Shown here piece after piece: positions 20,522 through 53,825 of a stretch of DNA of 64,000 nt. Numbering within the stretch: the stretch's first letter is position 1; each line of letters begins with the position of its first letter. A model generated the notes under the pieces. That model did no database searches. It saw only the letters and a program-made list of their open reading frames with translations, and had not been told where the DNA came from. A program made the position numbers and the translations under genes. This stretch comes from Planctomycetota bacterium (GTDB taxonomy: Bacteria > Planctomycetota > UBA8742 > UBA2392), in the NCBI GenBank assembly GCA_019186845.1, contig JABARW010000063.1, positions 26,337 through 90,336 on the forward strand, in the 5' to 3' direction.

Positions 20522-20787
20522 GTCAGTCTCCCATTTCAGGCCGTCCATTCGGCCTCATCCCAAGAACGGCGCGAGCTTAAGAAATATTCCTTGGGCAAAA
20601 AGGGGCAAGCGCTGCGCATTGATTCCCACCGGGGTTGTTGCGATACTCAACCCTCCGATGGCGCCCCTTCCTTTCGCTGCGGGAAAGTCCCGTCGGATGT
20701 TGCGTAACCATAGGTCTGCGCGCGCCACAAGGCGTGTGCCGACAAGCCCCTGTGTGCTGTGCCGGGCACTGACCGGCAATCGGGAAC

Positions 20788-33183: not shown

Positions 33184-33542
33184 CCGCAAGTTCCTCGCAG
33201 GCAAGTGGACGAAAAAGAAGATGGAGCGGTTCCGGCTGACCTGGGTGGGTTTAGATGTCGGGAAGTCAGGCGTTTGGGAACCAAAGGGTGCCGCTGGTAT
33301 GAAGCATTGTGTTTCGTTTTGGTTCCAAAACCAGCATTACCGGGTCATGGTTTTGTGTTACGGCCCGGTGGCGACGGAAATAAAACTGCGTGGTTCGAAT
33401 CTGTAAGTATCTATTTTATAATGTTTTGCGACGACACACTGGGGCGGTAACCGGCGCGGGCATCAAGAAATTTCAGTTTGGCACGGACAACGCTTATGCT
33501 TCGGCGCACTGTAAACAAGTCCACCAACTTCGGGAGATAGAG

Positions 33543-34364
33543 ATGCATAGGTTTCTACTGGGAGTCGCGGCTCTGGCGATCGCCTTCTGCGCGAACGCGC
33601 TGAGCGCTCAGGCTGCGGCCAACCCGCAGCTTTCCAGCGACGACACCGCCAAGACGGACACCCATGACCGTCCGGTGGGTGGCGTCAAGATGAAGCTGCC
33701 GGCGCCTGCCGTTGCGCCTCCGACGCAGCCCACACCTCCTCCTCCGCCCCCGGCCCCGACGCCGGTTCCGCCCCCGGAGGATGATGACATTCCCCCGACG
33801 GAGACGCCTCCGGCTCCTCCGCCGCCGGAAGATCCCCCGACCTACTATGACGAGCCTGTGCAGGGCAAGTTCGCCTTCCTGCTCGACTCCTCGGGTTCCA
33901 TGTACGGCTCGCGCATTGCGTCCGTCCGCCAGGAGACGGTGGCCGTCATCCAGCAGCTCACGGAAGACGACGAGTTTGACTGCAACACCTACGGCGGTCA
34001 GCACCCCTCGCCCTGGTACACCGTGTTCCTCTGGGGCTCCCTGCAGCCCGCGACGGACGGCAACAAGAGCGCGGCCATTGCCTGGGTCAACGGCCCTGCC
34101 ACGAACCCCGGCGGCGGCACACCGACCTATGAGAACCTGCAGCGCTCCTGCCAGGTTTACCCCGCCGACCTCGACAAGATGTTCCTGCTGACGGACGGCT
34201 ATCCCAACAGCGGCCCCGGCCCGATTCTCTCGGCCTTCCCCGGCTGGTGGTCGAAGTTCACCGACTGCACCCTGGTCTGCATCTGCATCGGTGGCGTCGG
34301 TTCAGCGCAGCAGTTCATGCAGCAACTGGCGGCCCTGGCTGGCGGCACCTACATCCAGCGGTAG
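33543..34364 (+). CDS. Secreted vWA-domain protein with Pro-rich linker, copy 1
   Basis: ATG 33543 (MHRFLLGVAALAIAFCANALSAQA signal peptide). PPTQPTPPPPPPAPTPVPPPEDDD linker. MIDAS DSSGS in FAFLLDSSGSMYG, later TPTY and LLTDG. Confidence 0.75.
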   Translation: MHRFLLGVAALAIAFCANALSAQAAANPQLSSDDTAKTDTHDRPVGGVKMKLPAPAVAPPTQPTPPPPPPAPTPVPPPEDDDIPPTETPPAPPPPEDPPTYYDEPVQGKFAFLLDSSGSMYGSRIASVRQETVAVIQQLTEDDEFDCNTYGGQHPSPWYTVFLWGSLQPATDGNKSAAIAWVNGPATNPGGGTPTYENLQRSCQVYPADLDKMFLLTDGYPNSGPGPILSAFPGWWSKFTDCTLVCICIGGVGSAQQFMQQLAALAGGTYIQR

Positions 34365-34420: not shown

Positions 34421-34904
34421 CCCAGCCGCGCCAAGCCTGCATGGCGTTGCGGAGGCGAGAGGGGGCCCTGGCACTTCTCGGTGCAGAGAACCACCAACTG
34501 CCCCCCATCCAGTTTCTCCAAATAACTACGCAGTCAAGCCTTATGGCACTGTGCGAGGGGAGCCACGGCCCGAGCCATTGGCCGCGACGTCCAAGCCCCT
34601 ACACTGTCATGCGGGAATCATTGCGAGACTTGCAGCCCTTTTTGGTTACCTGACAGGCCCCGATTGTGACTGCATTGGGTTCCCAATTGGTGCCGTAACA
34701 GCCTGAAATGCCAAAACCAATTGGTTACCAAATGGTCTCAGGCGGGGAACCTTCCGGGAACAAGCGTCTCAACTCCTTGTAAATAAAGCCTTTACGGCTG
34801 TTACACTCCAGGGGGCCTCGGTTGCCGCACATTGCCTGAATTCTGGCACGGCGGGTGCAATAGATTCCTGCGTCCCGATCCCAATTTCCTGACCAGGAGC
34901 AGAG

Positions 34905-35732
34905 ATGAACAGGTTCTTCCTCGGTGTTGTGGCTCTCGCCTTGGCGTTCTGCGCCAACGCCCTGAGCGCTCAGGCCGCAGCCAACCCTGAGCTGTCCAGT
35001 GATGACACCACCAAAACGGACACCCATGACCGTCCGGTGGGTGGCGTGAAGATGAAGCTGCCGGCGCCTGCTGTGCAGCCGCCCACGCAGCCCACGCCTC
35101 CTCCTCCGCCCCCGGCCCCGACGCCGGTTCCGCCCCCGGAGGATGACGACATTCCCCCGACGGAGACGCCTCCGGCTCCTCCGCCGCCGGAAGATCCCCC
35201 GACCTACTATGACGAGCCTGTGCAGGGCAAGTTCGCCTTCCTGCTCGACGCCTCGGGTTCCATGTACGGCTCGCGCGTTGCCTCTGTCCGCCAGGAGACG
35301 GTGGCTGTGATCCAGCAGCTCACGGAAGACGACGAGTTTGACTGCAATGCCTACGGCGGGCAGCACCCCTCGCCCTGGTACACCGTGTTCCTCTGGGGCT
35401 CTCTGCAGCCCGCGACGGACGGCAACAAGAGCGCGGCCATTGCCTGGGTCAACGGTCCTGCCACGAACCCCGGCGGCATGACCCCCACCTATGCCTGCCT
35501 GCAGCGCTCCTGCCAGGTCTACCCCGCCGACCTCGACAAGATGTTCCTGCTGACGGATGGCTATCCGAACATCACCGGCGACGCCTCGGCCATTCTGGGC
35601 GCCTTCCCCGGCTGGTGGTCGAAGTTCAGCGACTGCACCCTGGTCTGCATCTGCATCGGTGGTGTGGCATCGGCCCAGACCTTCATGCAGCAACTGGCGG
35701 CTTTGGCCGGCGGCACCTACATCCAGCGATAA
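34905..35732 (+). CDS. Secreted vWA-domain protein with Pro-rich linker, copy 2
   Basis: MNRFFLGVVALALAFCANALSAQA... Roughly 90% aa identity to copy 1. MIDAS DASGS. Differences cluster at GYPN[ITGDASAILG]AFPGWW. Confidence 0.75.
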   Translation: MNRFFLGVVALALAFCANALSAQAAANPELSSDDTTKTDTHDRPVGGVKMKLPAPAVQPPTQPTPPPPPPAPTPVPPPEDDDIPPTETPPAPPPPEDPPTYYDEPVQGKFAFLLDASGSMYGSRVASVRQETVAVIQQLTEDDEFDCNAYGGQHPSPWYTVFLWGSLQPATDGNKSAAIAWVNGPATNPGGMTPTYACLQRSCQVYPADLDKMFLLTDGYPNITGDASAILGAFPGWWSKFSDCTLVCICIGGVASAQTFMQQLAALAGGTYIQR

Positions 35733-35772
35733 ACGGGACCTTGTGAGGCACCCCGTACTTGGAGGAAAACCG

Positions 35773-35838
35773 GAGAGCGCAAGCTCTCCGGTTTCGATTT
35801 GCGCAGCCACCAGAGAGCGCAAGCTCTCCGGTTTCGAT
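35773..35838 (+). repeat. Perfect 26-nt direct repeat, each copy carrying a GCAA-loop hairpin (tandem terminator-like structures)
   Basis: GAGAGCGCAAGCTCTCCGGTTTCGAT at 35773-35798 and 35813-35838. First hairpin AAACCGGAGAGC-GCAA-GCTCTCCGGTTT (35767-35794). Confidence 0.7.
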
Positions 35839-35923
35839 GGTGCAGCACCCACTTACGTCAAGGCCGCGCTTCCCAGCCGGACGTTCAAGGCTAAAGTAAG
35901 CCGCACCTGCGCAAGAGACTGAC

Positions 35924-38167
35924 ATGGCACTGAACCGGCCCGGCGACAACAAGCCAACACCCGAAGCCGTCCTGCGCGAGATTGCCACCAAGAAGATTGA
36001 GGCGGAGCGGGTACGCAACGCGGAGCTGGCCCAGGAGAACCTGCGCCTTCGCAACCTGGCCGCCGAGCTGCAGCAGAAGCTTTCCCTGCTCAATGCCGAG
36101 GTCGCCAGCGCCCAGCGCACCACGCGCAAGGAACTGGAAGACTACCAGCGCAAGGCCATCGCCGAGATCGACCAGCTCAAGCACCACCATGCCCTGATGG
36201 TGGACCAGCTCAAGGATACCCACCGGCGCCAGGTCGAAGAACTCAAGCACAACCACCAGCGCGAACTCAGCCAGTACCAGAGCAAACAGCAGCGCGTGCT
36301 CTCCAAGGTTGAGCAGGAGCAGGAACTGGAAAGCCGCCGGGTGGCCGAGCTGTCCGAAGAACTGACCGCCGAGAAGGCCGAGCGGGCCCGCCTTGAAGAA
36401 AGGCTGCGCCGCCTCGAAAGCGCCACCAAGCGCAGCGCGGCACGCTTTGGACAGATCACGGGTTTTGAGGTCGCCACTCCCGAAGATGTGTTCAACGTGC
36501 TGCTGGAACTGGCGCCTGACGCCGCGGTGCAGCTCCTGCGCCGCACGGTGAAGGACCTGCGCGCCGCGGCCTCGGCCGTGGAGCGGGCCTTTGCCCAGGC
36601 CGTGAAGGAAGACACGGGCAAGAAGCAGCTTCAGGAAGCAGGCGAGAAGCTGGGCGACGCCATGGCCATGCCGGACACGTCCGACCTTCCGCCGGCCGCG
36701 GCCGAAGCGGTGGAGGAGGCCTTCTCTCTCATCGCTGAAGAAGTCAGCGCCCGGGTCAAGGGCAAGCACTACAGCGTGCTGATCGGCGCGCTGGCCCAGG
36801 AGGCGGCCCGCACGCTGCGCGACGACCGCCAGGACCTCCAGGCGCTCCAGCGTCTCGTCGAAATCGCGGAGGGCACCGAACTGGCCACGGCCGCGCGCCT
36901 GCTGCTCAAGGGCGCAACCTCCCATCAGCAGGCCATGAAAGCCGCCGAGCTGGTGCAGGCCGAGCTCAAGGAGCTCAAGCAGGAATTGCGTGAGCATTCC
37001 GCCAAGGCCAAGAAGCTGGTGGCCGTGGCCGAGAGCGGGCTAGCCGGCGAGTGGGCCGTATCGGCGCTGCAGGCCATGGCCGAACTTCAGCCCCTGCCCC
37101 CGGCCGACCCCGAGGCCTCCAAGCGCAAGTTCTATTCGCGCGTGCTGGAGAGCGCCAAGCTCATCAGCGACCGCATCGACAGCGCCATGAACCTGGGAGC
37201 GGAGGCCGAAGCGGCCCTGCGCGAATCCGACGAAGCCGCCACCCTGCTGGAGGGGCTGGTGGCGGGGCTCCATGAACTGCTCAGCGCCGTGCGCCGCGAG
37301 GTCATGAGCAAGATCCGCGGCGAGGAAGACCAGCGCCTGAAGCTGAAGGCCGAGCGCGCCGCCCTCGAAGCCCTGGGCAAGCGCGGTCAGCGGCTGGCCC
37401 AGGTCTTCGACGAGCAGTTGCGCGCCCTGGACACGATTTTGGGTCAGTGGCGCGCGACCTACACGGCATACTCGGCCATCTCGCGCGACGTCGAGCGAAT
37501 CGTGGCGGGCATCGAGGGCCAGATGCTGGACCTCAATCAACCCCTCGAGAGCGAGCCCGGCAAGCGGCTGTACGGCATCGTGCATGATCTGTCAGAGCAC
37601 CTGGCGGAGTACCGTGCCATCTCGGTCATGCGCCAGCGCATCTTCTATCACCTGCAGAACGCCCGGCAGCGGCCCATCGAGCTCAAGAACGTGCGAGACG
37701 CGGCGCACCGGGTTTTCATCGCTTTGGGCGAGCCCTCGCCCACGGATGCGCAACGAAGCTGGCAGCTGTGCATGGCAAGGCTGTATGACATCTGGGCGTC
37801 TTTGGAGCTGGTTCGCGGCGGCAGCCACAGCGATCTGGCCGTATGCGCCGAGCGCATCGAACCCCTGTTCGAGGCCACCATGGTCTGGGCCTCGAGCACC
37901 CACGTGGAGCAGTGCACGGACAACGAGCAGAATGAGCTGATGCTGACGCTGGCCTACCTGCGGCGGCTCAAGAAGGACGTGCTGGGCATCCATGACCGCA
38001 CCACGAGTAAGGTCGAGCGCAGCGAAGTCGCCGTGGACCAGTTCGAGCACCGCCTCGACGAAATGCCGTTCCCCGACGAATGGGACGTCGTAATGAGGCG
38101 TCTGGCGGGCCGCAAGGGCCCCGCCGGCGACCTGGACGAAACCCAGCGCGAGCCTCCCCGGCGCTGA
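35924..38167 (+). CDS. Hypothetical 747-aa coiled-coil protein
   Basis: Long E/Q/L/A/R-rich heptad-like sequence (KKIEAERVRNAELAQENLRLRNLAAELQQKLSLLN..). No TM or signal peptide. No enzymatic motif recognised. Confidence 0.55.
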   Translation: MALNRPGDNKPTPEAVLREIATKKIEAERVRNAELAQENLRLRNLAAELQQKLSLLNAEVASAQRTTRKELEDYQRKAIAEIDQLKHHHALMVDQLKDTHRRQVEELKHNHQRELSQYQSKQQRVLSKVEQEQELESRRVAELSEELTAEKAERARLEERLRRLESATKRSAARFGQITGFEVATPEDVFNVLLELAPDAAVQLLRRTVKDLRAAASAVERAFAQAVKEDTGKKQLQEAGEKLGDAMAMPDTSDLPPAAAEAVEEAFSLIAEEVSARVKGKHYSVLIGALAQEAARTLRDDRQDLQALQRLVEIAEGTELATAARLLLKGATSHQQAMKAAELVQAELKELKQELREHSAKAKKLVAVAESGLAGEWAVSALQAMAELQPLPPADPEASKRKFYSRVLESAKLISDRIDSAMNLGAEAEAALRESDEAATLLEGLVAGLHELLSAVRREVMSKIRGEEDQRLKLKAERAALEALGKRGQRLAQVFDEQLRALDTILGQWRATYTAYSAISRDVERIVAGIEGQMLDLNQPLESEPGKRLYGIVHDLSEHLAEYRAISVMRQRIFYHLQNARQRPIELKNVRDAAHRVFIALGEPSPTDAQRSWQLCMARLYDIWASLELVRGGSHSDLAVCAERIEPLFEATMVWASSTHVEQCTDNEQNELMLTLAYLRRLKKDVLGIHDRTTSKVERSEVAVDQFEHRLDEMPFPDEWDVVMRRLAGRKGPAGDLDETQREPPRR

Positions 38168-38380
38168 CTTGCCCGCGAGACGAAACCCACAGTGCGGGCT
38201 TGAGACCCTTCAAGGCCAAAGCTTCTCTGCCGTTGAACCTGCGCGCCCCGCCAATATGATGTTTGCCCTGCGTTGCGAGCCTTGGAGGCCGCAACCATTT
38301 GCGCTGGTCTGCGCCCCACGAGGGCGATGAGAACTGACGACACTGGCCAAGGACCAGCAGGACCCCGAAGGATCCCGAAG

Positions 38381-40273
38381 ATGAGCACAGCAACGGCAGC
38401 ACCGCCCGCCCAGCAGACGCGTGTGATCAACGATTTCAGCTTCCATGTGGCCACGGCCAACGGCTCGGGCTCGCAGACCGCGAACATGGTTCTGCTCCGC
38501 GGCCTTTTCAAAATGGGAATTCCGGTCAGCGGCAAGAACCTGTTTCCCAGCAACATCCAGGGCCTGCCCACCTGGTTCACCATCCGCGTGAACAAGGACG
38601 GCTGGATCGGCCGCGCCACGACGCCGGACATCATCATCTGCATGAACCCGGAAAGCGCGATCGAGGACGTGGAGACCGCGCGCAAGGGCGCCGTGCTGAT
38701 CTACGACGACAGCCTGGGGCTTTCCAAGATGCGCCCGGACTGCATCCACTATCCCGTTCCTTTCAAGAAGCTGGTGGTGGACGCCTGTCCCGACCTCAAG
38801 CTGCGCAAGCTGGTCATCAACATGCTGTACGTCGGCGTGTGCAGCGCTCTGTTCAACATCGCGGAAGACAAGCTGATGTCCGCTCTGTCCGCCCAGCTCA
38901 AGACCAAACCCAAGGCGGTCAAGGTCAACGAGCCGGCGATTACCCTGGGCCGCAAGTGGGCGCTGGAGAACATCAAGAAGGTGGACCCCTTCTGGTGCGA
39001 GCCCCTGAACAAGAACGGCGGCAAGATCATCATTGAGGGTAACGCCGCCACGGCCCTGGGCCTGATGTTCAACGGCTGCACCGTCGCTTCGTGGTATCCC
39101 ATCACGCCCTCCTCGAGCCTGTGTGAATCGCTCGAGGATTACATGCGCGACTACCGCGTGAACCCTGACGGCAAACGCACGTTTGCCGTCATCCAGGCCG
39201 AAGATGAGATCGCGGCCGTCGGCATGCTGGCGGGCGCCGGGTGGGCCGGCGCGCGGTGCTTCACCAGCACCAGCGGCCCCGGCATCTCGCTCATGAACGA
39301 GATCATCGGCCTGGGCTACTTCGCCGAGATTCCCTTCGTGATCTGCAACGTGGCCCGCACCGGCCCCTCCACGGGCCTGCCCACTCGCACCATGCAGGGC
39401 GACATTCTCAACGTCATTTACGCCTCGCACGGCGACACCAAGCATGTCGTGATCTTCCCCAGCAACCCCAAGGAAGCCTTCGAGTTCGCGGGCGTAGCGC
39501 TGGACCTGGCCGAACAGCTTCAGACCCCGGTTTTCATCAATTCGGACCTCGACCTGGGCATGAATTACTGGATGAGCGACCGCTTCGACTACCCGACGGG
39601 GCCCGTCAAGCGCGGCAAGGTATTGCACAAGGCCGACCTCGAGAAGCTGAAGGGCCAGTGGGCCCGCTACCGTGACGTGGACGGAGACGGGATTGGTTAT
39701 CGCACGCTGCCCGGCACCGACCACCCCAATGCCGCCTACTTCACGCGCGGCACCGGCCACACGGAAATGGCCACGTACAGCGAAAAGGCCACGGACTGGA
39801 AGAAGAACATGGACCGTCTCACCCGCAAGTTCGAGACGGCCAAGACCCTCGTGCCCAAGCCGGTGATCGACGGCTACACCAACCGCGTCGGCATTCTTTA
39901 CTTCGGCACGACCGAATCGGCCGTGCGCGAGGCTGCCAGTCTGCTGGAGAAGCAGCACGGCCACAAAGTGGACCTCTGCCGTGTGCGCGCCTTCCCCTTC
40001 AGCCGCGAGGTGGAGGACTTCCTGGCGACGCACGAGCGCGTGTATGTCGTGGAAATGAACCGCGACGCGCAGATGGCGATGGTCATCCGCGCCGAGTTGC
40101 CGCGCTTTGCCATGACGCTGCGCAGTATTCTGCACTACGACGGCCTGCCCCTGACGGCGGGCGTGGTGGTGGAGCAGTTCCTGGCGCAGCACAAGGACGA
40201 ACCCAATCCGACAAAGATTGCCCAGTCGGCGTCGCACGCGACGGCGGCCCTGGGCACGAAAGGCAGGGACTAA
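38381..40273 (+). CDS. korA: 2-oxoacid:ferredoxin (acceptor) oxidoreductase alpha subunit (fused gamma-alpha type)
   Basis: ATG 38381. ANGSGSQTAN..GKNLFPSNIQG (gamma-like), then GNAATALG..ASWYPITPSS..QAEDEIAA..TSGPG.SLM.E. Substrate specificity not determinable. Confidence 0.85.
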   Translation: MSTATAAPPAQQTRVINDFSFHVATANGSGSQTANMVLLRGLFKMGIPVSGKNLFPSNIQGLPTWFTIRVNKDGWIGRATTPDIIICMNPESAIEDVETARKGAVLIYDDSLGLSKMRPDCIHYPVPFKKLVVDACPDLKLRKLVINMLYVGVCSALFNIAEDKLMSALSAQLKTKPKAVKVNEPAITLGRKWALENIKKVDPFWCEPLNKNGGKIIIEGNAATALGLMFNGCTVASWYPITPSSSLCESLEDYMRDYRVNPDGKRTFAVIQAEDEIAAVGMLAGAGWAGARCFTSTSGPGISLMNEIIGLGYFAEIPFVICNVARTGPSTGLPTRTMQGDILNVIYASHGDTKHVVIFPSNPKEAFEFAGVALDLAEQLQTPVFINSDLDLGMNYWMSDRFDYPTGPVKRGKVLHKADLEKLKGQWARYRDVDGDGIGYRTLPGTDHPNAAYFTRGTGHTEMATYSEKATDWKKNMDRLTRKFETAKTLVPKPVIDGYTNRVGILYFGTTESAVREAASLLEKQHGHKVDLCRVRAFPFSREVEDFLATHERVYVVEMNRDAQMAMVIRAELPRFAMTLRSILHYDGLPLTAGVVVEQFLAQHKDEPNPTKIAQSASHATAALGTKGRD

Positions 40274-40275
40274 TC

Positions 40276-41337
40276 ATGGCAGGAACCACTGAAACCGCTC
40301 CTCCGGCGGAATCCAAGCAGCCGCAGGTCAACCGCATCGGCCTGGCCAAGAAGGACTACGGCGGCCTGAAGAGCACCCTGTGCATCGGCTGCGGCCACGA
40401 CTTGATCACGGCCCGCATCATTGACGCCTGCTACAACCTCGGCATCCGTCCTGAACAGGTGGCCAAGCTCTCGGGCATCGGCTGCTCATCCAAGACGCCG
40501 GCCTACTTCCTCAACCGCGCCCACGGCTTCAACGCCGTGCACGGCCGCATGCCCGCCATCGCCACGGGGGCGCAGGTCGCCAACAAGCACCTCAAGCTGA
40601 TTGCAGTCTCGGGCGACGGCGACAGCGCCAACATCGGCATGGGTCACTTCGTGCACGTCATGCGGCGCAACCTGAACCTGACCTACATCGTTGAGAACAA
40701 CGGCGTGTACGGCCTGACCAAGGGCCAGTTCAGCGCGACGGCCGACAAGGGCAGCAAGCAGAAGTCGGGCAACGTCAACCCCAACGACCCCATCGACCTC
40801 TGCGAGATGGCCTTCATGCTGGGCTGCGGCTTTGTGGCACGTCTGTTCGCGGGCAACACCAAGCAGATGACCAGCGTGATAGAGGCCGCTCTGGCCTATC
40901 AGGGCCTGGCCCTGCTGGACATCATCAGCCCCTGCGTGACCTTCAACAACCACGAAGGCAGCACCAAGAGCTTCCCCTACGCCAAGGCCAACGAAGAACC
41001 CCTGCACGACATCGGCTTTGTGCCGGCCTACGATCCCACCTACATGGAAATGGATCACGGCGAGGAACGCGAGATTACCCTCTCCGATGGCTCGCACATC
41101 ACGCTCAAGGCACTGGCGCGGGACTTTGACCCCACCGATCGCAAGGCAGCCGCCCTGCAGATCATGGAGGCCAAGAACACCAACAAGATCCTCACGGGTC
41201 TGATCTACGTGAATCCCAAGGCCGAGCTTTACACCGAGCAGCTGGGCCTCATTGACACGCCGCTGGCCCTGTTGACGGAGAAGGAGACCCGTCCGCCGGA
41301 AGGCGTCCTCAAGCAGATTATGGACGACCTGGCCTGA
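40276..41337 (+). CDS. korB: 2-oxoacid:ferredoxin oxidoreductase beta subunit (TPP-binding)
   Basis: CIGCGH.., SGIGCSS, GDGD...IG..H, ENNGVYGLTKGQ. Starts 2 nt after the alpha subunit. Confidence 0.9.
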   Translation: MAGTTETAPPAESKQPQVNRIGLAKKDYGGLKSTLCIGCGHDLITARIIDACYNLGIRPEQVAKLSGIGCSSKTPAYFLNRAHGFNAVHGRMPAIATGAQVANKHLKLIAVSGDGDSANIGMGHFVHVMRRNLNLTYIVENNGVYGLTKGQFSATADKGSKQKSGNVNPNDPIDLCEMAFMLGCGFVARLFAGNTKQMTSVIEAALAYQGLALLDIISPCVTFNNHEGSTKSFPYAKANEEPLHDIGFVPAYDPTYMEMDHGEEREITLSDGSHITLKALARDFDPTDRKAAALQIMEAKNTNKILTGLIYVNPKAELYTEQLGLIDTPLALLTEKETRPPEGVLKQIMDDLA

Positions 41338-41360: not shown

Positions 41361-41395
41361 GAAGCCCCGCGATTTCGCGGGGCTTCCTTTTTCTG
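41361..41395 (+). terminator. Rho-independent terminator after korB
   Basis: GAAGCCCCGCG-ATTT-CGCGGGGCTTC followed by CTTTTTCTG. Confidence 0.65.
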
Positions 41396-41427: not shown

Positions 41428-41913
41428 CTACAGCCCGGCGTCGTCCAGGGCCTTGAGCACCTGGGCGGCGTGGCTTGATGCCGTCACCCGTTCAATCACC
41501 GCGCGGATCACTCCCTGCCGGTCTAGAATGAAAGTGACCCGTGCGGGGGCCAGGAAGCCGTAAACGCCATAAAGCCTGGCCACCCGCTTCTCCGTGTCAC
41601 ACAGCAGGGTCATGGGCAGATGCAGCTTGTCACTGAAGCGCCGCATGGTGGCCGGGTCGCTGTAGCTGATGCCAAGAACGTGAGCGCGTCGCGCGAGCTC
41701 TGAATCGGCATCGCGCAGCGAGCACATCTGCGCGGTGCAAACGGGGGTATTGGCCCGCGGGAAGAACGCGAGCACCAAGGGCCTCTCACCCAGCAGTTCC
41801 TTCAGCGATACGGGTTTTCCCGCCGCGTCAGGCAGGGTGAAGTCCGGCGCGACATCGCCCACGCGCGCCCCCGGCTGCGGGTGATAGCCGCCCAACCCCG
41901 GAAACTTGAACAC
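41428..41913 (-). CDS. Peroxiredoxin, AhpC/TSA (Bcp-like) family, Cys-type
   Basis: GTG start at 41913, 1 nt after the upstream stop. VGDVAPDFTLPD..LVLAFFPRANTPVCTAQMC. Confidence 0.8.
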   Translation of the reverse strand: MFKFPGLGGYHPQPGARVGDVAPDFTLPDAAGKPVSLKELLGERPLVLAFFPRANTPVCTAQMCSLRDADSELARRAHVLGISYSDPATMRRFSDKLHLPMTLLCDTEKRVARLYGVYGFLAPARVTFILDRQGVIRAVIERVTASSHAAQVLKALDDAGL

Positions 41914-41914
41914 G

Positions 41915-42379
41915 TCAGCCTTTCTGGGCCGTCAGCGCCTCGAGCACCGCCCGGGCATGGCCATCGACCTTGACGTTAGACCAGATGCGGGCCAGCTTGC
42001 CCTTGGGGTCAATCAGGAACGTGCTGCGCACTATACCCATGTAGGTTTTGCCGTAGTTCTGCTTTTCGGCCCAAACGCCATAGGCTTGGGCCACTTTGTG
42101 GTCCTCGTCGGCCAGCAGGCGCACGCCGAGCTGGTGCTTTTCCTCGAACTTCTTCTGCTTGGCGCAGGAATCCGGGCTGATGCCCAGCACTACCGCGCCC
42201 GCCTTGACAAACTCCTTCACCTGACCGGTGAAGTCGATGGCCTCCCTCGTTCAGCCCGGCGTGTCCGCCTTGGGGTAAAAGAAGAACACCACCCACTTGC
42301 CGGCGCAGTCCGCCAGCCTGATTTCCTTGCCGTCCTGATCCTTCAAGGCAAAGGCCGGCGCCTTGTCTCCCTCTTTCAT
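41915..42379 (-). CDS. bcp: Bcp/PrxQ peroxiredoxin with in-frame UGA (probable selenocysteine) at the peroxidatic position, 154 codons
   Basis: ATG 42379: MKEGDKAPAFALKDQDGKEIRLADCAGKWVVFFFYPKADTPG-TGA(42253..42251)-TREAIDFTGQVKEFVKAGAVVLGISPD.., in frame to the stop at 41915-41917. Aligns with E. coli Bcp FYPKAMTPGCT. The track reports only the 101-aa C-terminal part. Confidence 0.6.
42215..42233 (-). promoter_or_regulatory. SECIS-like hairpin 17 nt downstream of the in-frame UGA
   Basis: mRNA sense: UGA-N17-CUUCACC-GGUCA-GGUGAAG. 7-bp perfect stem with a G/U-containing apical loop starting GGUC. Confidence 0.45.
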
Positions 42380-42408
42380 GGCATCCTCTCTGTTGCCCCC
42401 GTTGGCCC

Positions 42409-44741: not shown

Positions 44742-47700
44742 ATGCCCAGACTGGTCTTCAAAAAGGGCGAGCAGGCGCCGGTAGAGATGGCCGGCCCCAC
44801 AGTGCTTGGACGCTCGAGCGACCAGGCCCAGATCGCCATCAAGGACAACCGCCTTTCGCGGGCCCATTGCCGTTTTGAGCCCCGGGAAGACGGCCAATGG
44901 GCCATTGTGGACCTTGGCAGCCAGAATGGCACCTTCCTCAATGGCCGTCGCGTGCGCGAAAGCGTAGTCCGCCCCGGCGACGTCGTTACGATCGGACAGT
45001 GCGACATTCTGTTTGAGGCTACAGGCGGCCCCAGCGGCAGCGACCTGATGGCCGGGGTGGCCAGCACTCGCATCAACGCCACGCCCGCGGGCGGTCCGGC
45101 CATGGAGCCGGCCGAGGACAACCCTAACTCCACACGCACGGTGGTTGCTCCAGCGGCCCTGGCGCTGATTCAGGGCACGCTCAAGGACAAGATTTTCCCG
45201 CTGCTCAAGGACGAATTCGTCATTGGCCGCAAGGCCCCCTCCGACCTGATTCTGGAGGGAGACACCAAGGCCTCGGGCCAGCACGCAAAGATCACCCGCA
45301 AGGACGCCACCACCTGGGTCATCGAAGACCTCAAGAGCACCAACGGCGTGACCGTGAACGGCCACAAAGTGACGGAAGCCGTGGTGCTCAAGAATGGCGC
45401 CAAGATCATTGTTGGCCTTCAGACGTTTCAATTCACGCTGCAGGGCAAGCCGCCGGAAACCACGGGCGTCACGGCGCCCATGAGCGCCAAAGAAGTCCAA
45501 CAGAAGCTGGCCAAGGCCCAGGCGGCTGAGGCGGCCCCGCCGATGGACCTGGGCGACCCGTCCATCGGCGAGAAGAGCGAAACGCTGGACCGTCAGGCCC
45601 TGAACGTCGACGTCAAGGGCGGCGGAGGCGGCGGCCTCATTTTCTCGATTCTTGAAGTTGTACTGGCCCTGGCTGTGGTCGGCATGGTTCTGGGCGGCGG
45701 CTACATGCTGCTTCAGGAGAGTCCCGAGACCGTGGGCGGCGGTGGCACGACCAGCGAATCCCGCGATGGCGGGCTTTTGCAGGCCGCCAATTCGTCCATG
45801 GACAAACTTGACGCCGCCGGCATGCCCGAAGGCTGGAGTTTTGATCCCGTGGGCGGAGACTCCGTCTCCATGACCGAGGCCAGCCGCGGCGGCGCCCAGG
45901 CAGTGCAGCTGACGCGCTTCAACGCAAGCAATTCCATCTCCTATCTGTTCAGCGCTCCCATTGAGGTCAAGGGCATCGGCCTCAAGGCCAGTGTCTTTGC
46001 GGTCAACAGCGAACTCTCGGCCGGGCGCACGGGCACCGCCCTGCTTTCGCTCTTCTGGTACAAGGATTTCCGCGATCCCGCCATCGCCCGCACCCCTCTG
46101 GCTGCGGCCACCAACCTCACCACCTGGACGGAACTCAAGGGCGCATCGGCGGTGCCCCAGGGCGCCAAGTATGTGCGCCTGGCCCTGGGCATCACCGGAA
46201 AGTCCGGCAGCGTCGTATTTGACGACGCCCTGCTTCAGGATGACTCCACAGCGCCCGCAGCGGCCAAAGCCGCCAGCGTCGAGTTGAAGAACCGCCTGCG
46301 CTGGACCCTCGACGAAAACGGAGTGATCTCGCTGCTGGACCGCAGCGTGGTGCTGCTGCGCAACGGTGTGGTCATGCTGCATCAGGCCGACGGCCGCGCC
46401 GATCCCCTGGACCCTCGCCTCCTGCTGCTGGCGCCCCCTGCCGTCATCTCCGGAGAGTCGGGCATCAGCGTGAAGTACCAGTACTTTGACCCCATTGCGG
46501 AAAAGCCCGTCGAGCTGCGCATTGAACTGGGCGAGAATGCCTCACAGGCCACCCTGAACGCCTTGTTCAGCCCTGGCGGCGCTGACAAGGCCGCTTCCCG
46601 CCTGGCCCTGAGTTTCGTGGCCACGCCCGCCTTCGTGCCCAGCGAACTGGTGCGCCTGGAGGGTGAGCGCGTGGCAGACTACCGCCGTGAGATGCCTGAG
46701 GAAGGCCAGCGCATCAACCTTTCCACGGCCCTGGCTGCGGACACCGGCACGGGCAATCGCCTGGAAGCCCTGAACTCGACTTCGCCCCTGTTTGAAGCCC
46801 GGGCCGGCTCGGGCGGACGTGAGCTGTTCTTCCAGGGGCCTGCCACTGTGCAACTGGGTTTCTCGCTGGGCGGCGGCCGCGAAGAACTGGCGCAGCTGGC
46901 GGCCCTGGCTTCCGCCCTTCAGACGGGCGAGACCCAGCTGGACAGGCTGGCCCGCGCCCTGACAATTTTCCGCACCTATCCCTACAACCAGCGCGAGCTG
47001 ACTATCGCCGGCCAGGCCTGCGACAGCGCAGCAACGCACTACAAGCTGCGGCACCTCGAGTTGCGCGACGGCATCAATGTGCCCGACCTGCGCCGCAACG
47101 AGGGGCTCTACATCGCCGCCATGGACGAGTGCATCAGCGTGGCCGAGCAATTGCGCGCCCGCCAGCCTGAATGGGCCGATCAGTTCCTGCCGCTGTTGCG
47201 CGGCCTTGAAACCCCCAGCATGAGCGACGTGACGCAGCGCGCGGCGCGCCAGGCCCGCGGCGCGCTGGAAGACCTGCTGCGCAGTGCCGACGATTTCGAG
47301 GCCCTTTCGCGCGTGGCCAAGCGCGCCCGCTTCTGGCTGCGCGTCTCTATTGAGCAGCGCGACAGCGGCAACCTGCTCGCCAGCGCCCAGGATTTTCTGG
47401 AAAGCGGCCTTTCAACCCAGGGGCGCATCAAGCTGCGCACCATCGTTGAAAGTTACCCGCGCTGCCTCAATGGCATCTCGGCCAAGTCGCTCATGGTCGA
47501 ACAGGCGGAAGCCGTCTATGCCGAGGCGCTCCAGCGCCGTGCCGAGGGCCTCAATCAGATTGCCGGCGCCCTGCGCCAGCGCTGCAAGGAGTACCTGGAC
47601 CTGGTGGAAGCCAACCTGCTGACAAGCCCCCGCGTGCTCACCACTGAAGAGCGCGGCTGGCTGACCCGTCCCGACGAGGGCTCCGCTTCGGACCCCCGCA

Positions 47701-47768
47701 ACTGGCTGGAATTGGAAAACAAGATTGCGGACCGCATCAAGCTGCTGAGGGAGAAGCTGGCCAAGTAG
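44742..47768 (+). CDS. Twin-FHA membrane protein with extracytoplasmic jelly-roll-like and helical domains (1008 aa)
   Basis: FHA1 (VLGRS..SRAHCRF..IVDLGSQNGTFLNG). FHA2 (VIGRK..SGQHAKI..IEDLKSTNGVTVNG). TM (LIFSILEVVLALAVVGMVLGGGYMLL). Then a CBM4/9-like beta region ending GSVVFDDALLQDD. Confidence 0.7.
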   Translation: MPRLVFKKGEQAPVEMAGPTVLGRSSDQAQIAIKDNRLSRAHCRFEPREDGQWAIVDLGSQNGTFLNGRRVRESVVRPGDVVTIGQCDILFEATGGPSGSDLMAGVASTRINATPAGGPAMEPAEDNPNSTRTVVAPAALALIQGTLKDKIFPLLKDEFVIGRKAPSDLILEGDTKASGQHAKITRKDATTWVIEDLKSTNGVTVNGHKVTEAVVLKNGAKIIVGLQTFQFTLQGKPPETTGVTAPMSAKEVQQKLAKAQAAEAAPPMDLGDPSIGEKSETLDRQALNVDVKGGGGGGLIFSILEVVLALAVVGMVLGGGYMLLQESPETVGGGGTTSESRDGGLLQAANSSMDKLDAAGMPEGWSFDPVGGDSVSMTEASRGGAQAVQLTRFNASNSISYLFSAPIEVKGIGLKASVFAVNSELSAGRTGTALLSLFWYKDFRDPAIARTPLAAATNLTTWTELKGASAVPQGAKYVRLALGITGKSGSVVFDDALLQDDSTAPAAAKAASVELKNRLRWTLDENGVISLLDRSVVLLRNGVVMLHQADGRADPLDPRLLLLAPPAVISGESGISVKYQYFDPIAEKPVELRIELGENASQATLNALFSPGGADKAASRLALSFVATPAFVPSELVRLEGERVADYRREMPEEGQRINLSTALAADTGTGNRLEALNSTSPLFEARAGSGGRELFFQGPATVQLGFSLGGGREELAQLAALASALQTGETQLDRLARALTIFRTYPYNQRELTIAGQACDSAATHYKLRHLELRDGINVPDLRRNEGLYIAAMDECISVAEQLRARQPEWADQFLPLLRGLETPSMSDVTQRAARQARGALEDLLRSADDFEALSRVAKRARFWLRVSIEQRDSGNLLASAQDFLESGLSTQGRIKLRTIVESYPRCLNGISAKSLMVEQAEAVYAEALQRRAEGLNQIAGALRQRCKEYLDLVEANLLTSPRVLTTEERGWLTRPDEGSASDPRNWLELENKIADRIKLLREKLAK

Positions 47769-47784
47769 CCGCGCGAGGAGAGGC

Positions 47785-49443
47785 ATGCCGTACGGTATCG
47801 ACATCGGGTCGTCGCTCACCATGCTCGTGAATCTCACGGGCAAGGGAAGTGCCATGAAGCTGCAGAAGGCCATGGTGCTCCCCGGCGTGAAGATTGACAC
47901 CGAACTCAAGCCGGAAAGTTACGCCTCCCACGCCCTGGGCACGACCTGGCGCGGCCTGAGCTCTCTGGGCGTCCGGGCGGGCAGGCCCGTCTCGCTCATT
48001 CCGGGCCGCGACATCGTGTATCGGACGCTGGCCGTCAGCGGGCCGGATTCCCGCGTGATCCAGTCCATGGTGCGCCTGGAAGCCGACGAGATTTCAGGCG
48101 GCAGCGGCGGCATTCTGGGCGACTTTATGATGGGTGCCGCGCCGGATGGCTCGCCCGTGGCGCTGATCGGGCTGGCACGAGACGCGGTGGTCGACCATTA
48201 CGCATCCTGCCTGCTCAAGATGGGCGTGGACCCCACACTGCTCGTGCCGGGCTGCGCGGCGCTGTTTTCCGCCTATCAGCTCGCCGGGGACGTAACGTTT
48301 GAGGGTGTTTACCTGCTGGCGAACATCGGCGATGAAGTCACGGACGTCATCATGGTCAAGGAGGGCAACCTGCTGTTTGCCCGCACGGTGGCCATTGGCG
48401 TGTCCGATTTCATAGACCGCCTCGCGCCCGAGTACGGCGGAGACCGTGACAGCATCCGCCAGATCCTGTTCCGGGACATCGACCTGCGGCCCAGCGTCGC
48501 CGCCGAGAACATCGCCGCAGACCGCGGCGTCGAAGCCGGCCAGGAAGTGGCATCGCGCCTGTTTCAGCAGATTGGCGGCGTGATCATGCTGGCCAAGGGC
48601 GCCCACGGCGACCCCAAGCTGGACGCTTCACGCATTGCCCTGTGCGGACCCGGCGCCGCGGTGCCGGGCCTGCGCGAGCTGATGATGCACCGCACGCGCA
48701 AGACGGTCGAAGTTTTTGACCCGCTCAACGGCGTTTCACTCGACGGCCTCGACGACGCCAGCAAGGAAACCGCCGAGATTTATCGGCCGGCCCTTGCCCT
48801 GGCCGTGGGCCTGGCCCGCATCGGCAACGAGAAGGACAGCAAGTACCTGAACTTCGTGCCGGGCTCCGTGCGTAAGCGGCGCGAATTCCTGAACAAGAGC
48901 CTGTTCCTTTATCTGGCGGCGGCCGTGGTGCTGGCCGTGATGCTGCCGGCCTATGCCCTGACCCAGAAGGCCGCGGCGGACGTGGAGAAAGGCGCGCGCG
49001 AACTGCAGGGCGAAGTGGGCCGCTATGCCAGCGCCTCGGGCCAGCTGCCGGCACGGACTGATGCCCTGGAAGAGGCCCAGCGGCGCTCAAAAGTGTCCCT
49101 GGACGCCATTGCTCCGGGTCATACTGCGACGGAGCTGCTCGTGGCCTTTGCGGAAAAACGGCCCGAGACTGTTCAGATCCGCAAGGTCATTCTCGAACCC
49201 GGCAAGAAGGCCCAGGCCGAGAAGGGCGCTGAGAAGCCTCGCGTCGTATTCGAGTTCTTCGTTGAAAGGCGCGGCACATCCGACCCCGCCCAGGTCGTCA
49301 TCGAGCTTCAGGGCCTGCTGAAGAAGCTGCCCGGCGTGGCGGATGTCCAGCAGAAGGGCGAGGCCAAGCAGAACACCCAGGTTCAGGGTCTGGACGTGGT
49401 GTTTGCCGTGGAACTGAAGATTGAAGAGGAGGTGCGCCCGTGA
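47785..49443 (+). CDS. PilM-like actin-fold ATPase fused to TM plus PilN-like domain (GspL-like architecture)
   Basis: GAGGAG RBS. YGIDIGSSLTMLV.., LLANIGDEVTDVIMV..FARTVAIGVSDF, IALCGPGAAVPGL. TM FLYLAAAVVLAVMLPAYAL. About 170-aa C-terminal domain. Confidence 0.65.
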   Translation: MPYGIDIGSSLTMLVNLTGKGSAMKLQKAMVLPGVKIDTELKPESYASHALGTTWRGLSSLGVRAGRPVSLIPGRDIVYRTLAVSGPDSRVIQSMVRLEADEISGGSGGILGDFMMGAAPDGSPVALIGLARDAVVDHYASCLLKMGVDPTLLVPGCAALFSAYQLAGDVTFEGVYLLANIGDEVTDVIMVKEGNLLFARTVAIGVSDFIDRLAPEYGGDRDSIRQILFRDIDLRPSVAAENIAADRGVEAGQEVASRLFQQIGGVIMLAKGAHGDPKLDASRIALCGPGAAVPGLRELMMHRTRKTVEVFDPLNGVSLDGLDDASKETAEIYRPALALAVGLARIGNEKDSKYLNFVPGSVRKRREFLNKSLFLYLAAAVVLAVMLPAYALTQKAAADVEKGARELQGEVGRYASASGQLPARTDALEEAQRRSKVSLDAIAPGHTATELLVAFAEKRPETVQIRKVILEPGKKAQAEKGAEKPRVVFEFFVERRGTSDPAQVVIELQGLLKKLPGVADVQQKGEAKQNTQVQGLDVVFAVELKIEEEVRP

Positions 49444-53822: not shown

Positions 53823-53825
53823 GCC

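What the first reader, a model, noticed from the sequence alone, without database searches (positions are those of the whole stretch)
41915..42379. Probable selenocysteine peroxiredoxin: in-frame UGA at the Bcp peroxidatic Cys plus SECIS-like hairpin
On the minus strand, ATG 42379 opens MKEGDKAPAFALKDQDGKEIRLADCAGKWVVFFFYPKADTPG. A TGA follows (42253..42251), then TREAIDFTGQVKEFVKAGAVVLGISPD.., in the same frame to the stop at 41915. Against E. coli Bcp (..VYFYPKAMTPGCTVQAC..) the TGA falls exactly on the peroxidatic Cys. There is no resolving Cys 5 residues later (UTREAI). 17 nt after the UGA is a perfect 7-bp hairpin, CUUCACC-GGUCA-GGUGAAG. Its apical loop begins GGUC, as I recall for the E. 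coli fdhF SECIS, and its distance from the UGA fits the range used for bacterial SECIS models. Other genes here terminate on TGA (e.g. dut, CNNM), so this is local recoding, not a reassigned code. A Cys-type peroxiredoxin follows 1 nt downstream in the same operon. Sec-containing Prx proteins are a known bacterial selenoprotein class, so the biology is plausible. The ORF track and ordinary gene callers would split or truncate this gene.
Basis: partly seen in the sequence, partly recalled or inferred. Interest (0 to 1): 0.75.

Follow-up and report, generated by a model that had tools for sequence, protein, structure and literature searches.

The report
Selenocysteine peroxiredoxin gene in a planctomycete
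This is a real but ordinary selenoprotein gene: a Bcp/PrxQ-type peroxide-removing enzyme whose catalytic cysteine is replaced by selenocysteine, encoded by an in-frame UGA followed by a recoding hairpin, and public annotations cut it short.

Summary
On the minus strand, ATG 42379 opens a 154-codon Bcp/PrxQ peroxiredoxin. It has TGA (42253-42251) at the peroxidatic position of the PxxxTxxC motif, and a perfect 7-bp hairpin with loop GGUCA (42233-42215) 17 nt downstream.

The TGA is neither an error nor a pseudogene lesion. Ten independent SRA assemblies carry the identical gene. Diverged relatives (a Planctomycetota MAG and metagenome contigs at 92%, 72% and 67% aa identity) keep the TGA and an intact frame. 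dN/dS downstream of the UGA is 0.07-0.09.

On its own the hairpin is weak evidence, with about 2% chance background. It does meet all four criteria of the published bacterial SECIS model. Its loop GU is kept by a rare GGU/AGU codon in all six Sec forms. Syntenic Cys orthologues use GGC/AGC; two of the three Cys lineages lose the stem through synonymous changes and one keeps a relic.

Sec-containing Prx (TxxU) is a long-known, common bacterial selenoprotein family, so this is a new member of a known kind. One mildly new detail: the SECIS loop sits 24 nt after the UGA, against 17 nt in most environmental Sec-PrxQ genes.

Not tested: selA/B/C/D in the rest of the genome. None lie in the window.

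The parts
41915..42379 (-). Complete Sec-containing Bcp/PrxQ peroxiredoxin gene: 154 codons including UGA-Sec at codon 43, plus the TGA stop at 41917-41915
   Evidence: Translation. Pfam AhpC-TSA E 2.8e-43. NCBIfam NF006960 at 164 bits against a cutoff of 140. PDB X. campestris Bcp E 2.6e-35.
42384..42390 (-). Shine-Dalgarno-like GAGAGGA, 4 nt upstream of ATG 42379
   Evidence: Read directly from the sequence. Identical in L001 and L002.
42251..42253 (-). In-frame UGA read as selenocysteine (U43), at the peroxidatic position of the PxxxTxxU motif (P36...T40-P-G-U43)
   Evidence: The TGA is kept in L001, L002, L003, L203, L204 and L210-L219.
42215..42233 (-). Candidate SECIS hairpin. 5' arm CUUCACC 42233-42227, loop GGUCA 42226-42222, 3' arm GGUGAAG 42221-42215. 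The loop starts 24 nt after the UGA.
   Evidence: Energy -11.2 kcal/mol, 1 of 200 shuffles as stable. Meets the published bSECIS criteria. Kept in all six Sec forms. Lost in two of the three Cys-orthologue lineages; a relic stem without the loop GU remains in L205.
41918..42220 (-). Artefactual 101-aa ORF from GTG 42220, which lies inside the 3' arm of the hairpin. This is what gene callers and GenBank annotate in place of the full gene.
   Evidence: ORF list. Exact match to MBV6516965.1 'putative peroxiredoxin bcp', 101 aa. Contigs show 42-aa plus 101-aa gene calls.
41428..41913 (-). Downstream Cys-type Bcp paralogue (161 aa). Active site PVCTAQMC, so Cp plus a resolving Cys at +5. GTG start 1 nt after the Sec-Prx stop; probably the same operon.
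   Evidence: Pfam AhpC-TSA E 1.1e-33. The same tandem occurs in L003 and L210-L219.
41361..41386 (.). 11-bp GC-rich palindromic hairpin between the convergent prx operon and the 2-oxoacid:ferredoxin oxidoreductase beta gene. Terminator-like; the T-run is on the + strand only.
   Evidence: sequence.

Best explanation
The locus is an intact selenoprotein gene. It encodes a 154-residue Bcp/PrxQ-type, thioredoxin-fold peroxiredoxin in which selenocysteine (U43, codon UGA 42253-42251) replaces the peroxidatic cysteine.

How it most likely works:

- Recoding (inferred). During translation the hairpin at 42233-42215 forms in the mRNA. Its loop, GGUCA, starts 24 nt after the UGA. The hairpin would be bound by SelB-GTP-Sec-tRNA(Sec), which delivers Sec to the UGA in competition with RF2. 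This is the standard bacterial mechanism.
- Chemistry (inferred from family chemistry). The selenolate, positioned by T40 and R118 of the conserved Prx active site, reduces peroxide to give a selenenic acid.
- Recycling (open). The protein lacks both canonical resolving-Cys positions: Cp+5 in helix alpha2, and the alpha3 site of X. campestris C84. The oxidised Sec is therefore recycled either directly by thioredoxin (1-Cys-like) or through Cys72 at the N-cap of alpha3.
- Operon. The gene is co-transcribed with a conventional 2-Cys Bcp paralogue.

What is shown: gene integrity, conservation of the UGA, purifying selection across the UGA, and a hairpin that tracks the UGA.

What is inferred: SelB dependence, actual Sec insertion, and the recycling route.
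For: (1) Family and position. Pfam and NCBIfam Bcp matches are above cutoff. The UGA aligns to Cp C48 of X. campestris Bcp. The Prx active-site residues P36, T40 and R118 are invariant in a 52-sequence alignment.

(2) Not an error. Ten independent SRA assemblies give the identical gene with TGA.

(3) Not a pseudogene.
- Contigs at 96%, 92%, 72% and 67% aa identity (L003 = MAG PLA1 QEVF01000013, then L002, L203, L204) keep the TGA and an uninterrupted frame.
- dN/dS downstream of the UGA is 0.072 and 0.087, at dS 0.85 and 0.32. Upstream it is 0.16 and 0.

(4) TGA is otherwise a stop. Eight of 19 confident genes end on TGA, and dut, FBA, CNNM and the radical-SAM gene show profile matches that reach the profile end. 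No other in-frame TGA candidate exists in the window.

(5) The hairpin behaves as a SECIS.
- It meets all four bSECIS criteria: 5-nt loop, 7-bp stem, GG at loop positions 1-2, 24-nt spacing, -11.2 kcal/mol (criteria from PMC13188914; energies).
- L204 shares only 67% aa identity yet has a hairpin identical at 19 of 19 nt to that of L002.
- L203 keeps a hairpin in the same place with altered pairs: GCCUUC-A-CCA/GUU/UGG-C-GAAGGC, -13.5 kcal/mol.
- The loop codon is GGU or AGU in all six Sec forms and GGC or AGC in all four Cys forms. GGU makes up only 8.7% of Gly codons here.
- L207 is the Cys orthologue closest to L204 (83% aa). It encodes the same L-V-K but with CUU GUA AAA, which breaks all three third-position pairs (0 kcal/mol). 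L208 folds at -2.7 kcal/mol.
- All these orthologues share synteny with a divergent signal-peptidase gene.

(6) The kind is known and common. All 80 loci fetched encode Prx sequence on both sides of the TGA, and most have a GU-loop hairpin. Sec-Prx with the TxxU motif (COG1225) is reported in PMC1088965, PMC1794560 and PMC5029168. Some Planctomycetes carry complete Sec-insertion gene sets (PMC4807772).
Against: - No tRNA-Sec and no selA, selB or selD in the 64-kb window. The rest of the genome could not be searched, so the capacity to decode Sec is assumed.
- Rfam gave no match, though it has no general bacterial SECIS model.
- The hairpin alone is weak. The amino-acid sequence fixes 4 of its 7 pairs, and P(stem | protein, codon usage) = 0.23.
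- Stem covariation is minimal. Five of the six Sec forms have identical stems, and only L203 differs.
- One Cys orthologue (L205) keeps a -9.9 kcal/mol relic stem, so a stem does not strictly require a UGA.
- There is no protein-level evidence for selenium.
Confidence: 0.87

Rival explanations
1. The gene is a true selenoprotein gene, but the 7-bp hairpin at 42233-42215 is not the functional SECIS. On this view it is a by-product of the F-T-G-x-V-K coding sequence and high GC3, and Sec insertion is directed by another structure or by a broader fold.
For: - Four of the 7 pairs are forced by the amino acids, and P(stem | protein, codon usage) = 0.23.
- About 2% of random codons in this window's genes are followed by an equivalent hairpin.
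- The Cys orthologue L205 keeps a similar stem.
- The 67-nt fold is not unusually stable, z = -0.74.
- Most Sec-PrxQ genes place their loop 17 nt after the UGA, not 24 nt.
Against: - The rare GGU/AGU loop codon tracks the UGA perfectly: 6 of 6 Sec forms against 0 of 4 Cys forms.
- Synonymous codons in the stem are invariant across Sec forms at 67% aa identity, but are broken in the Cys sister L207, which encodes the same residues.
- No alternative hairpin is conserved across the six Sec forms in the 66 nt after the UGA.
Confidence: 0.07
2. The UGA is read through or bypassed without selenocysteine, either by near-cognate Trp or Cys insertion in an organism lacking Sec machinery, or by expression as two products: a 42-aa peptide plus a 101-aa protein started at GTG 42220.
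For: - The Sec machinery was not found in the window and could not be sought elsewhere.
- Gene callers predict exactly these two products.
Against: - Trp at the peroxidatic position, or a fragment lacking the PxxxTxxC motif, would be catalytically dead. Yet both halves are under strong purifying selection, and the active-site residues on both sides (T40; R118) are kept.
- A GU-loop hairpin conserved against codon bias has no role in this model.
- GTG 42220 has no evident function other than being the Val codon in the stem.
- At least 80 homologous genes carry UGA at the same codon, a pattern typical of selenoproteins.
Confidence: 0.04
3. The gene is a pseudogene or an assembly or sequencing error: a TGC/TGT to TGA nonsense change in a decaying Bcp gene made redundant by the downstream paralogue.
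For: - A single base change converts TGC or TGT to TGA.
- A second Bcp gene lies immediately downstream and could compensate.
Against: - Ten independent assemblies show the identical TGA.
- The TGA is kept in lineages with dS up to 0.85-1.35, with no further frame disruption and dN/dS of 0.07-0.17.
- All 80 metagenome homologues fetched encode Prx sequence in frame on both sides of the TGA; 75 run to a stop and 5 are cut short only by a contig end.
Confidence: 0.02

Closest known systems
Sec-containing peroxiredoxin (Prx) selenoprotein family, COG1225/PF00578, TxxU motif (Kryukov & Gladyshev 2004; Zhang et al. 2005, 2006; Peng et al. 2016)
   Same: - Bcp/PrxQ fold, a PxxxTxxU active site with Sec at the peroxidatic position, and widespread Cys homologues.
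- A hairpin with a G/U-containing apical loop just downstream of the UGA.
- 43 genes in the Sargasso Sea data, and 91 genes in 78 genomes.
- More than 120 hits in my metagenome scan.
   Different: - The lineage is an uncultured Planctomycetota clade. In a neighbour-joining tree it nests among Cys forms, apart from the environmental Sec-PrxQ groups.
- The SECIS loop starts 24 nt after the UGA and is built on the FTGxVK codons. Most environmental members use a GCGUGCGG-GUU-CCGCGACGC hairpin with the loop at 17 nt.
- There is no Cys at Cp+5.
E. coli fdhF SECIS and the bSECISearch consensus model of bacterial SECIS
   Same: - A stem-loop in the coding region directly after the UGA.
- The loop starts GGUC, as in fdhF.
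- All four consensus criteria are met.
   Different: - The loop is 24 nt after the UGA, against 18 nt in fdhF.
- The loop has 5 nt rather than 4.
- There is no bulged U equivalent to fdhF U17, and no extended lower helix that includes the UGA.
- SelB binding was not tested.
PrxU of Eubacterium acidaminophilum (Sohling et al. 2001), NCBIfam NF040737
   Same: A thioredoxin-dependent peroxiredoxin with Sec at the peroxidatic site. It is the experimentally shown precedent for a Sec-Prx (cited in PMC13188914).
   Different: It belongs to a different Prx subfamily. The window protein scores 52.6 bits against a cutoff of 270 for NF040737, but passes the Bcp model NF006960.
Xanthomonas campestris Bcp/PrxQ (PDB 3GKK, 5IIZ, 5IPH)
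   Same: - Closest solved structure (E 2.6e-35), with a gap-free alignment over 136 residues.
- The same lack of a Cp+5 Cys (TTEGLDF against TREAIDF).
   Different: - Cys rather than Sec at the peroxidatic site.
- Its resolving Cys84 in helix alpha3 aligns to Glu79 here.
- The window protein instead has Cys72, aligned to Xc Val77, at the N-cap of alpha3.

Membership tests
Sec-containing peroxiredoxin (Prx, TxxU) selenoprotein family | AhpC-TSA/Bcp thioredoxin-fold peroxiredoxin domain | tested here: met
   Pfam PF00578 E 2.8e-43. NF006960 at 164 bits against a cutoff of 140. PDB Bcp E 2.6e-35. The AF2 model of the 76%-identical Cys orthologue has pLDDT 96 and Prx-like secondary structure.
Sec-containing peroxiredoxin (Prx, TxxU) selenoprotein family | In-frame UGA aligned to the peroxidatic Cys of the PxxxTxxC motif, with the catalytic Thr and Arg retained | tested here: met
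   The motif reads P36-K-A-D-T40-P-G-U43. U43 aligns to Xc C48. T40 and R118 are invariant columns.
Sec-containing peroxiredoxin (Prx, TxxU) selenoprotein family | Sec/Cys pairs: close homologues with Cys at the same column, and other homologues with UGA | tested here: met
   Cys orthologues in the same synteny are L205, L207 and L208. Sec orthologues are L002, L003, L203 and L204. A further 80 Sec-PrxQ genes came from metagenomes.
Sec-containing peroxiredoxin (Prx, TxxU) selenoprotein family | Coding sequence under purifying selection downstream of the UGA | tested here: met
   dN/dS is 0.072 against L002 and 0.087 against L003 downstream of the UGA.
Sec-containing peroxiredoxin (Prx, TxxU) selenoprotein family | Host genome encodes the Sec-decoding trait (selA, selB, selC, selD) | not testable with these tools
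   None of these genes was found in the 64-kb window. Other contigs of the genome cannot be fetched. Some Planctomycetes are reported to have the full set (PMC4807772).
Sec-containing peroxiredoxin (Prx, TxxU) selenoprotein family | Selenium actually incorporated in the protein | not testable with these tools
   This needs 75Se labelling or mass spectrometry.
Bacterial SECIS (bSECISearch consensus model) | Apical loop of 3-9 nt on an upper stem of 4-16 bp | tested here: met
   The loop is GGUCA (5 nt) on a 7-bp perfect stem. Criteria are from PMC13188914.
Bacterial SECIS (bSECISearch consensus model) | A G in the first two loop positions, usually followed by G or U | tested here: met
   The loops are GGUCA, GGUCU and (A)GUU(U) in the six Sec forms. 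The GU is lost (GC) in all four Cys forms.
Bacterial SECIS (bSECISearch consensus model) | 16-37 nt between the UGA and the apical loop | tested here: met
   The spacing is 24 nt: a 17-nt spacer plus the 7-nt arm.
Bacterial SECIS (bSECISearch consensus model) | Minimum free energy of -7.5 kcal/mol or lower | tested here: met
   -11.2 kcal/mol for the window hairpin, and -10.4 and -13.5 kcal/mol in relatives.
Bacterial SECIS (bSECISearch consensus model) | Structure conserved through compensatory change among Sec-containing orthologues | tested here: inconclusive
   Five of the six Sec forms have identical stems. L203 keeps a hairpin in register with an A.C mismatch and added G-C pairs at the base. 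There are too few independent variants for covariation statistics.
Bacterial SECIS (bSECISearch consensus model) | Binds SelB and is required for UGA recoding | not testable with these tools
   This is an experimental test.
PrxU (NF040737, E. acidaminophilum type) | Scores above the equivalog cutoff | tested here: not met
   52.6 bits against a cutoff of 270. The protein is not a PrxU orthologue.
Atypical 2-Cys Bcp (alpha2 or alpha3 resolving Cys) | Resolving Cys at Cp+5, or at the X. campestris C84 position | tested here: not met
   The Cp+5 position is Ile48, and the Xc C84 column is Glu79. The only other cysteines are C25 and C72.

The most novel reading that the evidence does not exclude
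Sec use in this planctomycete Bcp clade may have arisen independently of the main environmental Sec-PrxQ groups. It would have done so with its own SECIS, built on the FTGxVK codons and placed 7 nt further from the UGA. Sec would then have been lost at least three times by Sec-to-Cys conversion. The hairpin now appears at graded stages of decay: a relic stem without the loop GU in L205, and full loss through synonymous changes in L207 and L208. That would make the clade a natural series for studying how a bacterial SECIS is born and dies. The Sec-Prx plus Cys-Prx tandem could then act as a selenium-dependent and selenium-independent pair.
Probability: 0.35. Interest if true: 0.45.

Novelty: new member of a known kind. 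Interest (0 to 1): 0.3.

Why it matters
- Annotation. GenBank lists this gene as a 101-aa or 107-aa fragment in several Planctomycetota MAGs (MBV6516965.1, GIK52691.1, HRJ80124.1), and gene callers on metagenome contigs split it in the same way. The organism's main Sec-dependent peroxidase is therefore invisible to metabolic reconstructions, and its selenium dependence is missed.
- Biology. The finding adds an uncultured Planctomycetota lineage to the known users of Sec-Prx. The gene sits next to an oxygen-sensitive 2-oxoacid:ferredoxin oxidoreductase.
- SECIS evolution. Closely related Sec and Cys orthologues in conserved synteny give a small, clean data set on how SECIS hairpins are maintained and lost.
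- It does not change any concept. Sec-Prx is a textbook bacterial selenoprotein family.

Tried and rejected
- Rfam, at gathering thresholds over the whole window and in E-value mode over 42100-42320, found nothing relevant. The only hit was a chance IRES match at E 5.8.
- ARAGORN found only tRNA-Lys.
- NCBIfam and Pfam scans of 35 window ORFs found no selA, selB or selD. The one SelB-model hit is LepA's GTPase domain, far below cutoff.
- A window-wide scan for other TGA-joined coding segments found only this gene.
- The genome-contig scan returned only one close genome, PLA1.
- A literature search for QEVF00000000 found nothing. BSepDB and Peng 2016 do not mention Planctomycetes.
The Cys orthologue P0001 was modelled instead. 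No coordinates are returned, so the U43-C72 distance could not be measured.
- DNA for P0146, a further split 43-aa plus 99-aa relative, was unavailable.
- I considered reassignment of the genetic code and rejected it, because TGA terminates 8 of 19 confident genes and several of them show profile matches that reach the profile end.
- I considered extending the window ends by protein look-ups to search for sel genes. I dropped the idea as low-yield, because the exact start codons of the called genes are unknown.
Full report
**1. The observation**

- ATG 42379 lies 4 nt after an SD-like GAGAGGA. Forty-two sense codons end in ...FFFYPKADTPG.
- TGA follows at 42253-42251. Another 111 sense codons (TREAIDFTGQVKEF...) run in the same frame to TGA 41917-41915.
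- The mechanical ORF list splits this into a 42-aa ORF and a 101-aa ORF that starts at GTG 42220.
- Seventeen nucleotides after the UGA lies CUUCACC-GGUCA-GGUGAAG, at 42233-42215.
- A second AhpC-TSA gene begins at GTG 41913, 1 nt after the stop. Its active site is PVCTAQMC.

**2. What the protein is**

- With Cys in place of the stop, the product matches Pfam AhpC-TSA (E 2.8e-43). It passes the NCBIfam equivalog for thioredoxin-dependent thiol peroxidase Bcp (NF006960, 164 bits, cutoff 140).
- It does not pass the model for PrxU, the experimentally characterised Sec-peroxiredoxin of E. acidaminophilum (52.6 bits against 270).
- The closest solved structure is X. campestris Bcp/PrxQ (E 2.6e-35). 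In the gap-free alignment the UGA column is the peroxidatic Cys48. The Xanthomonas resolving Cys84 aligns to Glu79, and the Cp+5 position is Ile.
- The only other cysteines are C25 and C72. An AlphaFold model of the 76%-identical Cys orthologue P0001 (pLDDT 96) places residue 72 at the N-cap of helix alpha3.
- The Prx catalytic residues P36, T40 and R118 are invariant in a 52-sequence alignment.

**3. Is the TGA real and selected?**

- The exact 101-aa fragment is in GenBank as MBV6516965.1, 'putative peroxiredoxin bcp', from a Planctomycetes MAG. Related truncated entries are GIK52691.1 and HRJ80124.1.
- Ten independent SRA assemblies carry the identical gene with TGA.
- Diverged contigs also keep the TGA and an unbroken frame:
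  - L003, from MAG Planctomycetota bacterium PLA1 (QEVF01000013), about 90% nt identity and syntenic over 20 kb, 96% aa for this gene;
  - L002, 92% aa;
  - L203, 72% aa;
  - L204, 67% aa.
- Nei-Gojobori counts give dN/dS of 0.072 and 0.087 downstream of the UGA, at dS 0.85 and 0.32. Upstream values are 0.16 and 0.
- TGA is a normal stop elsewhere. Eight of 19 confident genes end on it, and dut, fructose-bisphosphate aldolase, the CNNM gene and a radical-SAM gene have profile matches that run to the profile end.
- No other pair of TGA-joined coding segments exists in the window.
- Error, pseudogene and code reassignment are therefore excluded.

**4. Is the hairpin a SECIS?**

Taken alone, the hairpin is weak evidence.
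- The amino acids F-T...V-K force four of its seven pairs.
- Given the protein sequence and local codon usage, a full stem arises with P = 0.23, or 0.02 if the Gly codon must also be GGU.
- About 2% of random codons in this window's genes are followed by a stem of at least 7 bp with a GG/GU-initiated loop at 16-37 nt.
- A 67-nt fold is not unusually stable, z = -0.74.

The comparative data are what count.
- The hairpin meets the four criteria of the published consensus model: loop of 3-9 nt, stem of 4-16 bp, G in the first two loop positions, 16-37 nt spacing, and MFE of -7.5 kcal/mol or lower (PMC13188914). Here the values are a 5-nt loop GGUCA, a 7-bp stem, 24 nt and -11.2 kcal/mol.
- All six Sec forms keep a hairpin in this register.
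  - The window, L001 and L003 are identical.
  - L002 and L204 have loop GGUCU and identical stems. L002 and L204 match at 19 of 19 nt despite 67% aa identity.
  - L203 has GCCUUC-A-CCA/GUU/UGG-C-GAAGGC at -13.5 kcal/mol.
- The codon that supplies the loop GU is GGU or AGU in 6 of 6 Sec forms. It is GGC or AGC in 4 of 4 Cys orthologues. GGU makes up only 8.7% of Gly codons and AGU 7.2% of Ser codons in this window.
- The Cys orthologues are true orthologues, each with the divergent signal-peptidase gene upstream.
  - L207 is 83% identical to Sec-form L204 and encodes the same L-V-K. It uses CUU GUA AAA, which breaks all three third-position pairs (0 kcal/mol).
  - L208 folds at -2.7 kcal/mol.
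  - L205 is 83% identical to Sec-form L203. It keeps a relic stem (-9.9 kcal/mol) but has AGC in the loop.
- The hairpin and its GU therefore follow the UGA rather than the phylogeny. This is the behaviour expected of a SelB-binding element.
- The E. coli fdhF comparison holds. The sequence I recalled was verified in 5419 genomes, and it folds with a GGUC loop 18 nt after the UGA.

**5. How it compares with what is known**

- Sec-containing peroxiredoxin (COG1225, TxxU motif) is a long-established bacterial selenoprotein family.
  - It has 12 members and five inferred Cys-to-Sec events in Zhang et al. 2006 (PMC1794560).
  - It has 91 genes in 78 genomes in Peng et al. 2016 (PMC5029168).
My own estimate of chance matches is only a few. 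All 80 loci fetched encode Prx sequence on both sides of the TGA.
- Most of those loci carry a different hairpin, GCGUGCGG-GUU-CCGCGACGC, with the loop 17 nt after the UGA. None outside the window's clade has the GGUCA/+24 arrangement.
- In a neighbour-joining tree without bootstrap support, the planctomycete clade nests among Cys forms and lies apart from those environmental Sec groups. Within the clade, Sec and Cys forms are interleaved.
- The simplest reading, which is an inference, is a clade-specific SECIS followed by several Sec-to-Cys conversions.
- Complete Sec-insertion gene sets are reported in some Planctomycetes (PMC4807772).

**6. What remains untested**

- The window has no tRNA-Sec and no selA, selB or selD among the 35 ORFs scanned. 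I could not fetch the other contigs of this genome or of PLA1.
- SelB binding, selenium incorporation and the recycling route are inferred. Recycling could be direct reduction by thioredoxin or a selenenylsulfide with C72.

**7. Verdict**

- This is a genuine but unremarkable member of a known selenoprotein family that public annotation truncates.
- Two modest points of interest remain: a SECIS in an unusual register, and a tidy set of Sec/Cys orthologue pairs that show hairpin maintenance and decay.
- Interest 0.3. Novelty: new member of a known kind.

Noticed in passing
window 41918-42220 (-); GenBank MBV6516965.1, GIK52691.1, HRJ80124.1: Public annotations of several Planctomycetota MAGs list only the C-terminal 101-aa or 107-aa fragment of this gene, as 'putative peroxiredoxin bcp' or 'hypothetical protein'. 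Gene callers on Logan and JGI contigs split it into 42/43-aa and 99-101-aa products.
   Followed up: yes
L083-L162 (metagenome contigs): Most environmental Sec-PrxQ genes share a conserved hairpin, GCGUGCGG-GUU-CCGCGACGC, with the loop 17 nt after the UGA. It is encoded by the A-C-G-F-R-D-A codons. Smaller groups have CGUGA-type loops at 21 nt. So at least three SECIS registers exist within one protein family.
   Followed up: partly
window ~35765-35845; L003 16541-16770: An intergenic 40-nt unit contains an inverted repeat (AACCGGAGAGC-TTGC-GCTCTCCGGTT). By eye it is present in about 2 copies in the window, although Tandem Repeats Finder reports no array there. It forms a 5.8-copy tandem array at 98% match in the related MAG PLA1. 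It is a REP-like, copy-number-variable element upstream of the 747-aa coiled-coil ORF at 35924-38167.
   Followed up: partly
window 38273-41337 (+): The 2-oxoacid:ferredoxin (acceptor) oxidoreductase alpha and beta subunits lie convergent to the Sec-Prx/Cys-Prx operon. They share an 11-bp GC-rich palindromic hairpin (41361-41386) as a likely bidirectional terminator. An oxygen-sensitive enzyme next to two peroxidases suggests an anaerobic or microaerophilic lifestyle.
   Followed up: no
window 41428-41913 (-): The downstream paralogue is a conventional alpha2-type atypical 2-Cys Bcp (PVCTAQMC). The tandem Sec-Prx plus Cys-Prx arrangement is kept in the window's own clade (L003, L210-L219) but not next to the Sec orthologue L203. 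It may be a selenium-dependent and selenium-independent pair.
   Followed up: partly
window 20773-23649, 44742-47768, 47749-49443, 53823-54506: The neighbourhood is rich in FHA-domain proteins: an FHA plus Ser/Thr kinase of 958 aa, and a double-FHA protein of 1008 aa. It also holds PilM-like and N-terminal-methylation (pilin-like) genes. This suggests an FHA/kinase-regulated type IV pilus-like system.
   Followed up: no
window 33384-34364 and 34893-35732 (+): Two paralogous ORFs give weak matches to the same region (model positions 269-426) of the 'marine proteobacterial sortase target' model. L003 shows cross-matching duplicated segments here. The function is unknown.
   Followed up: no
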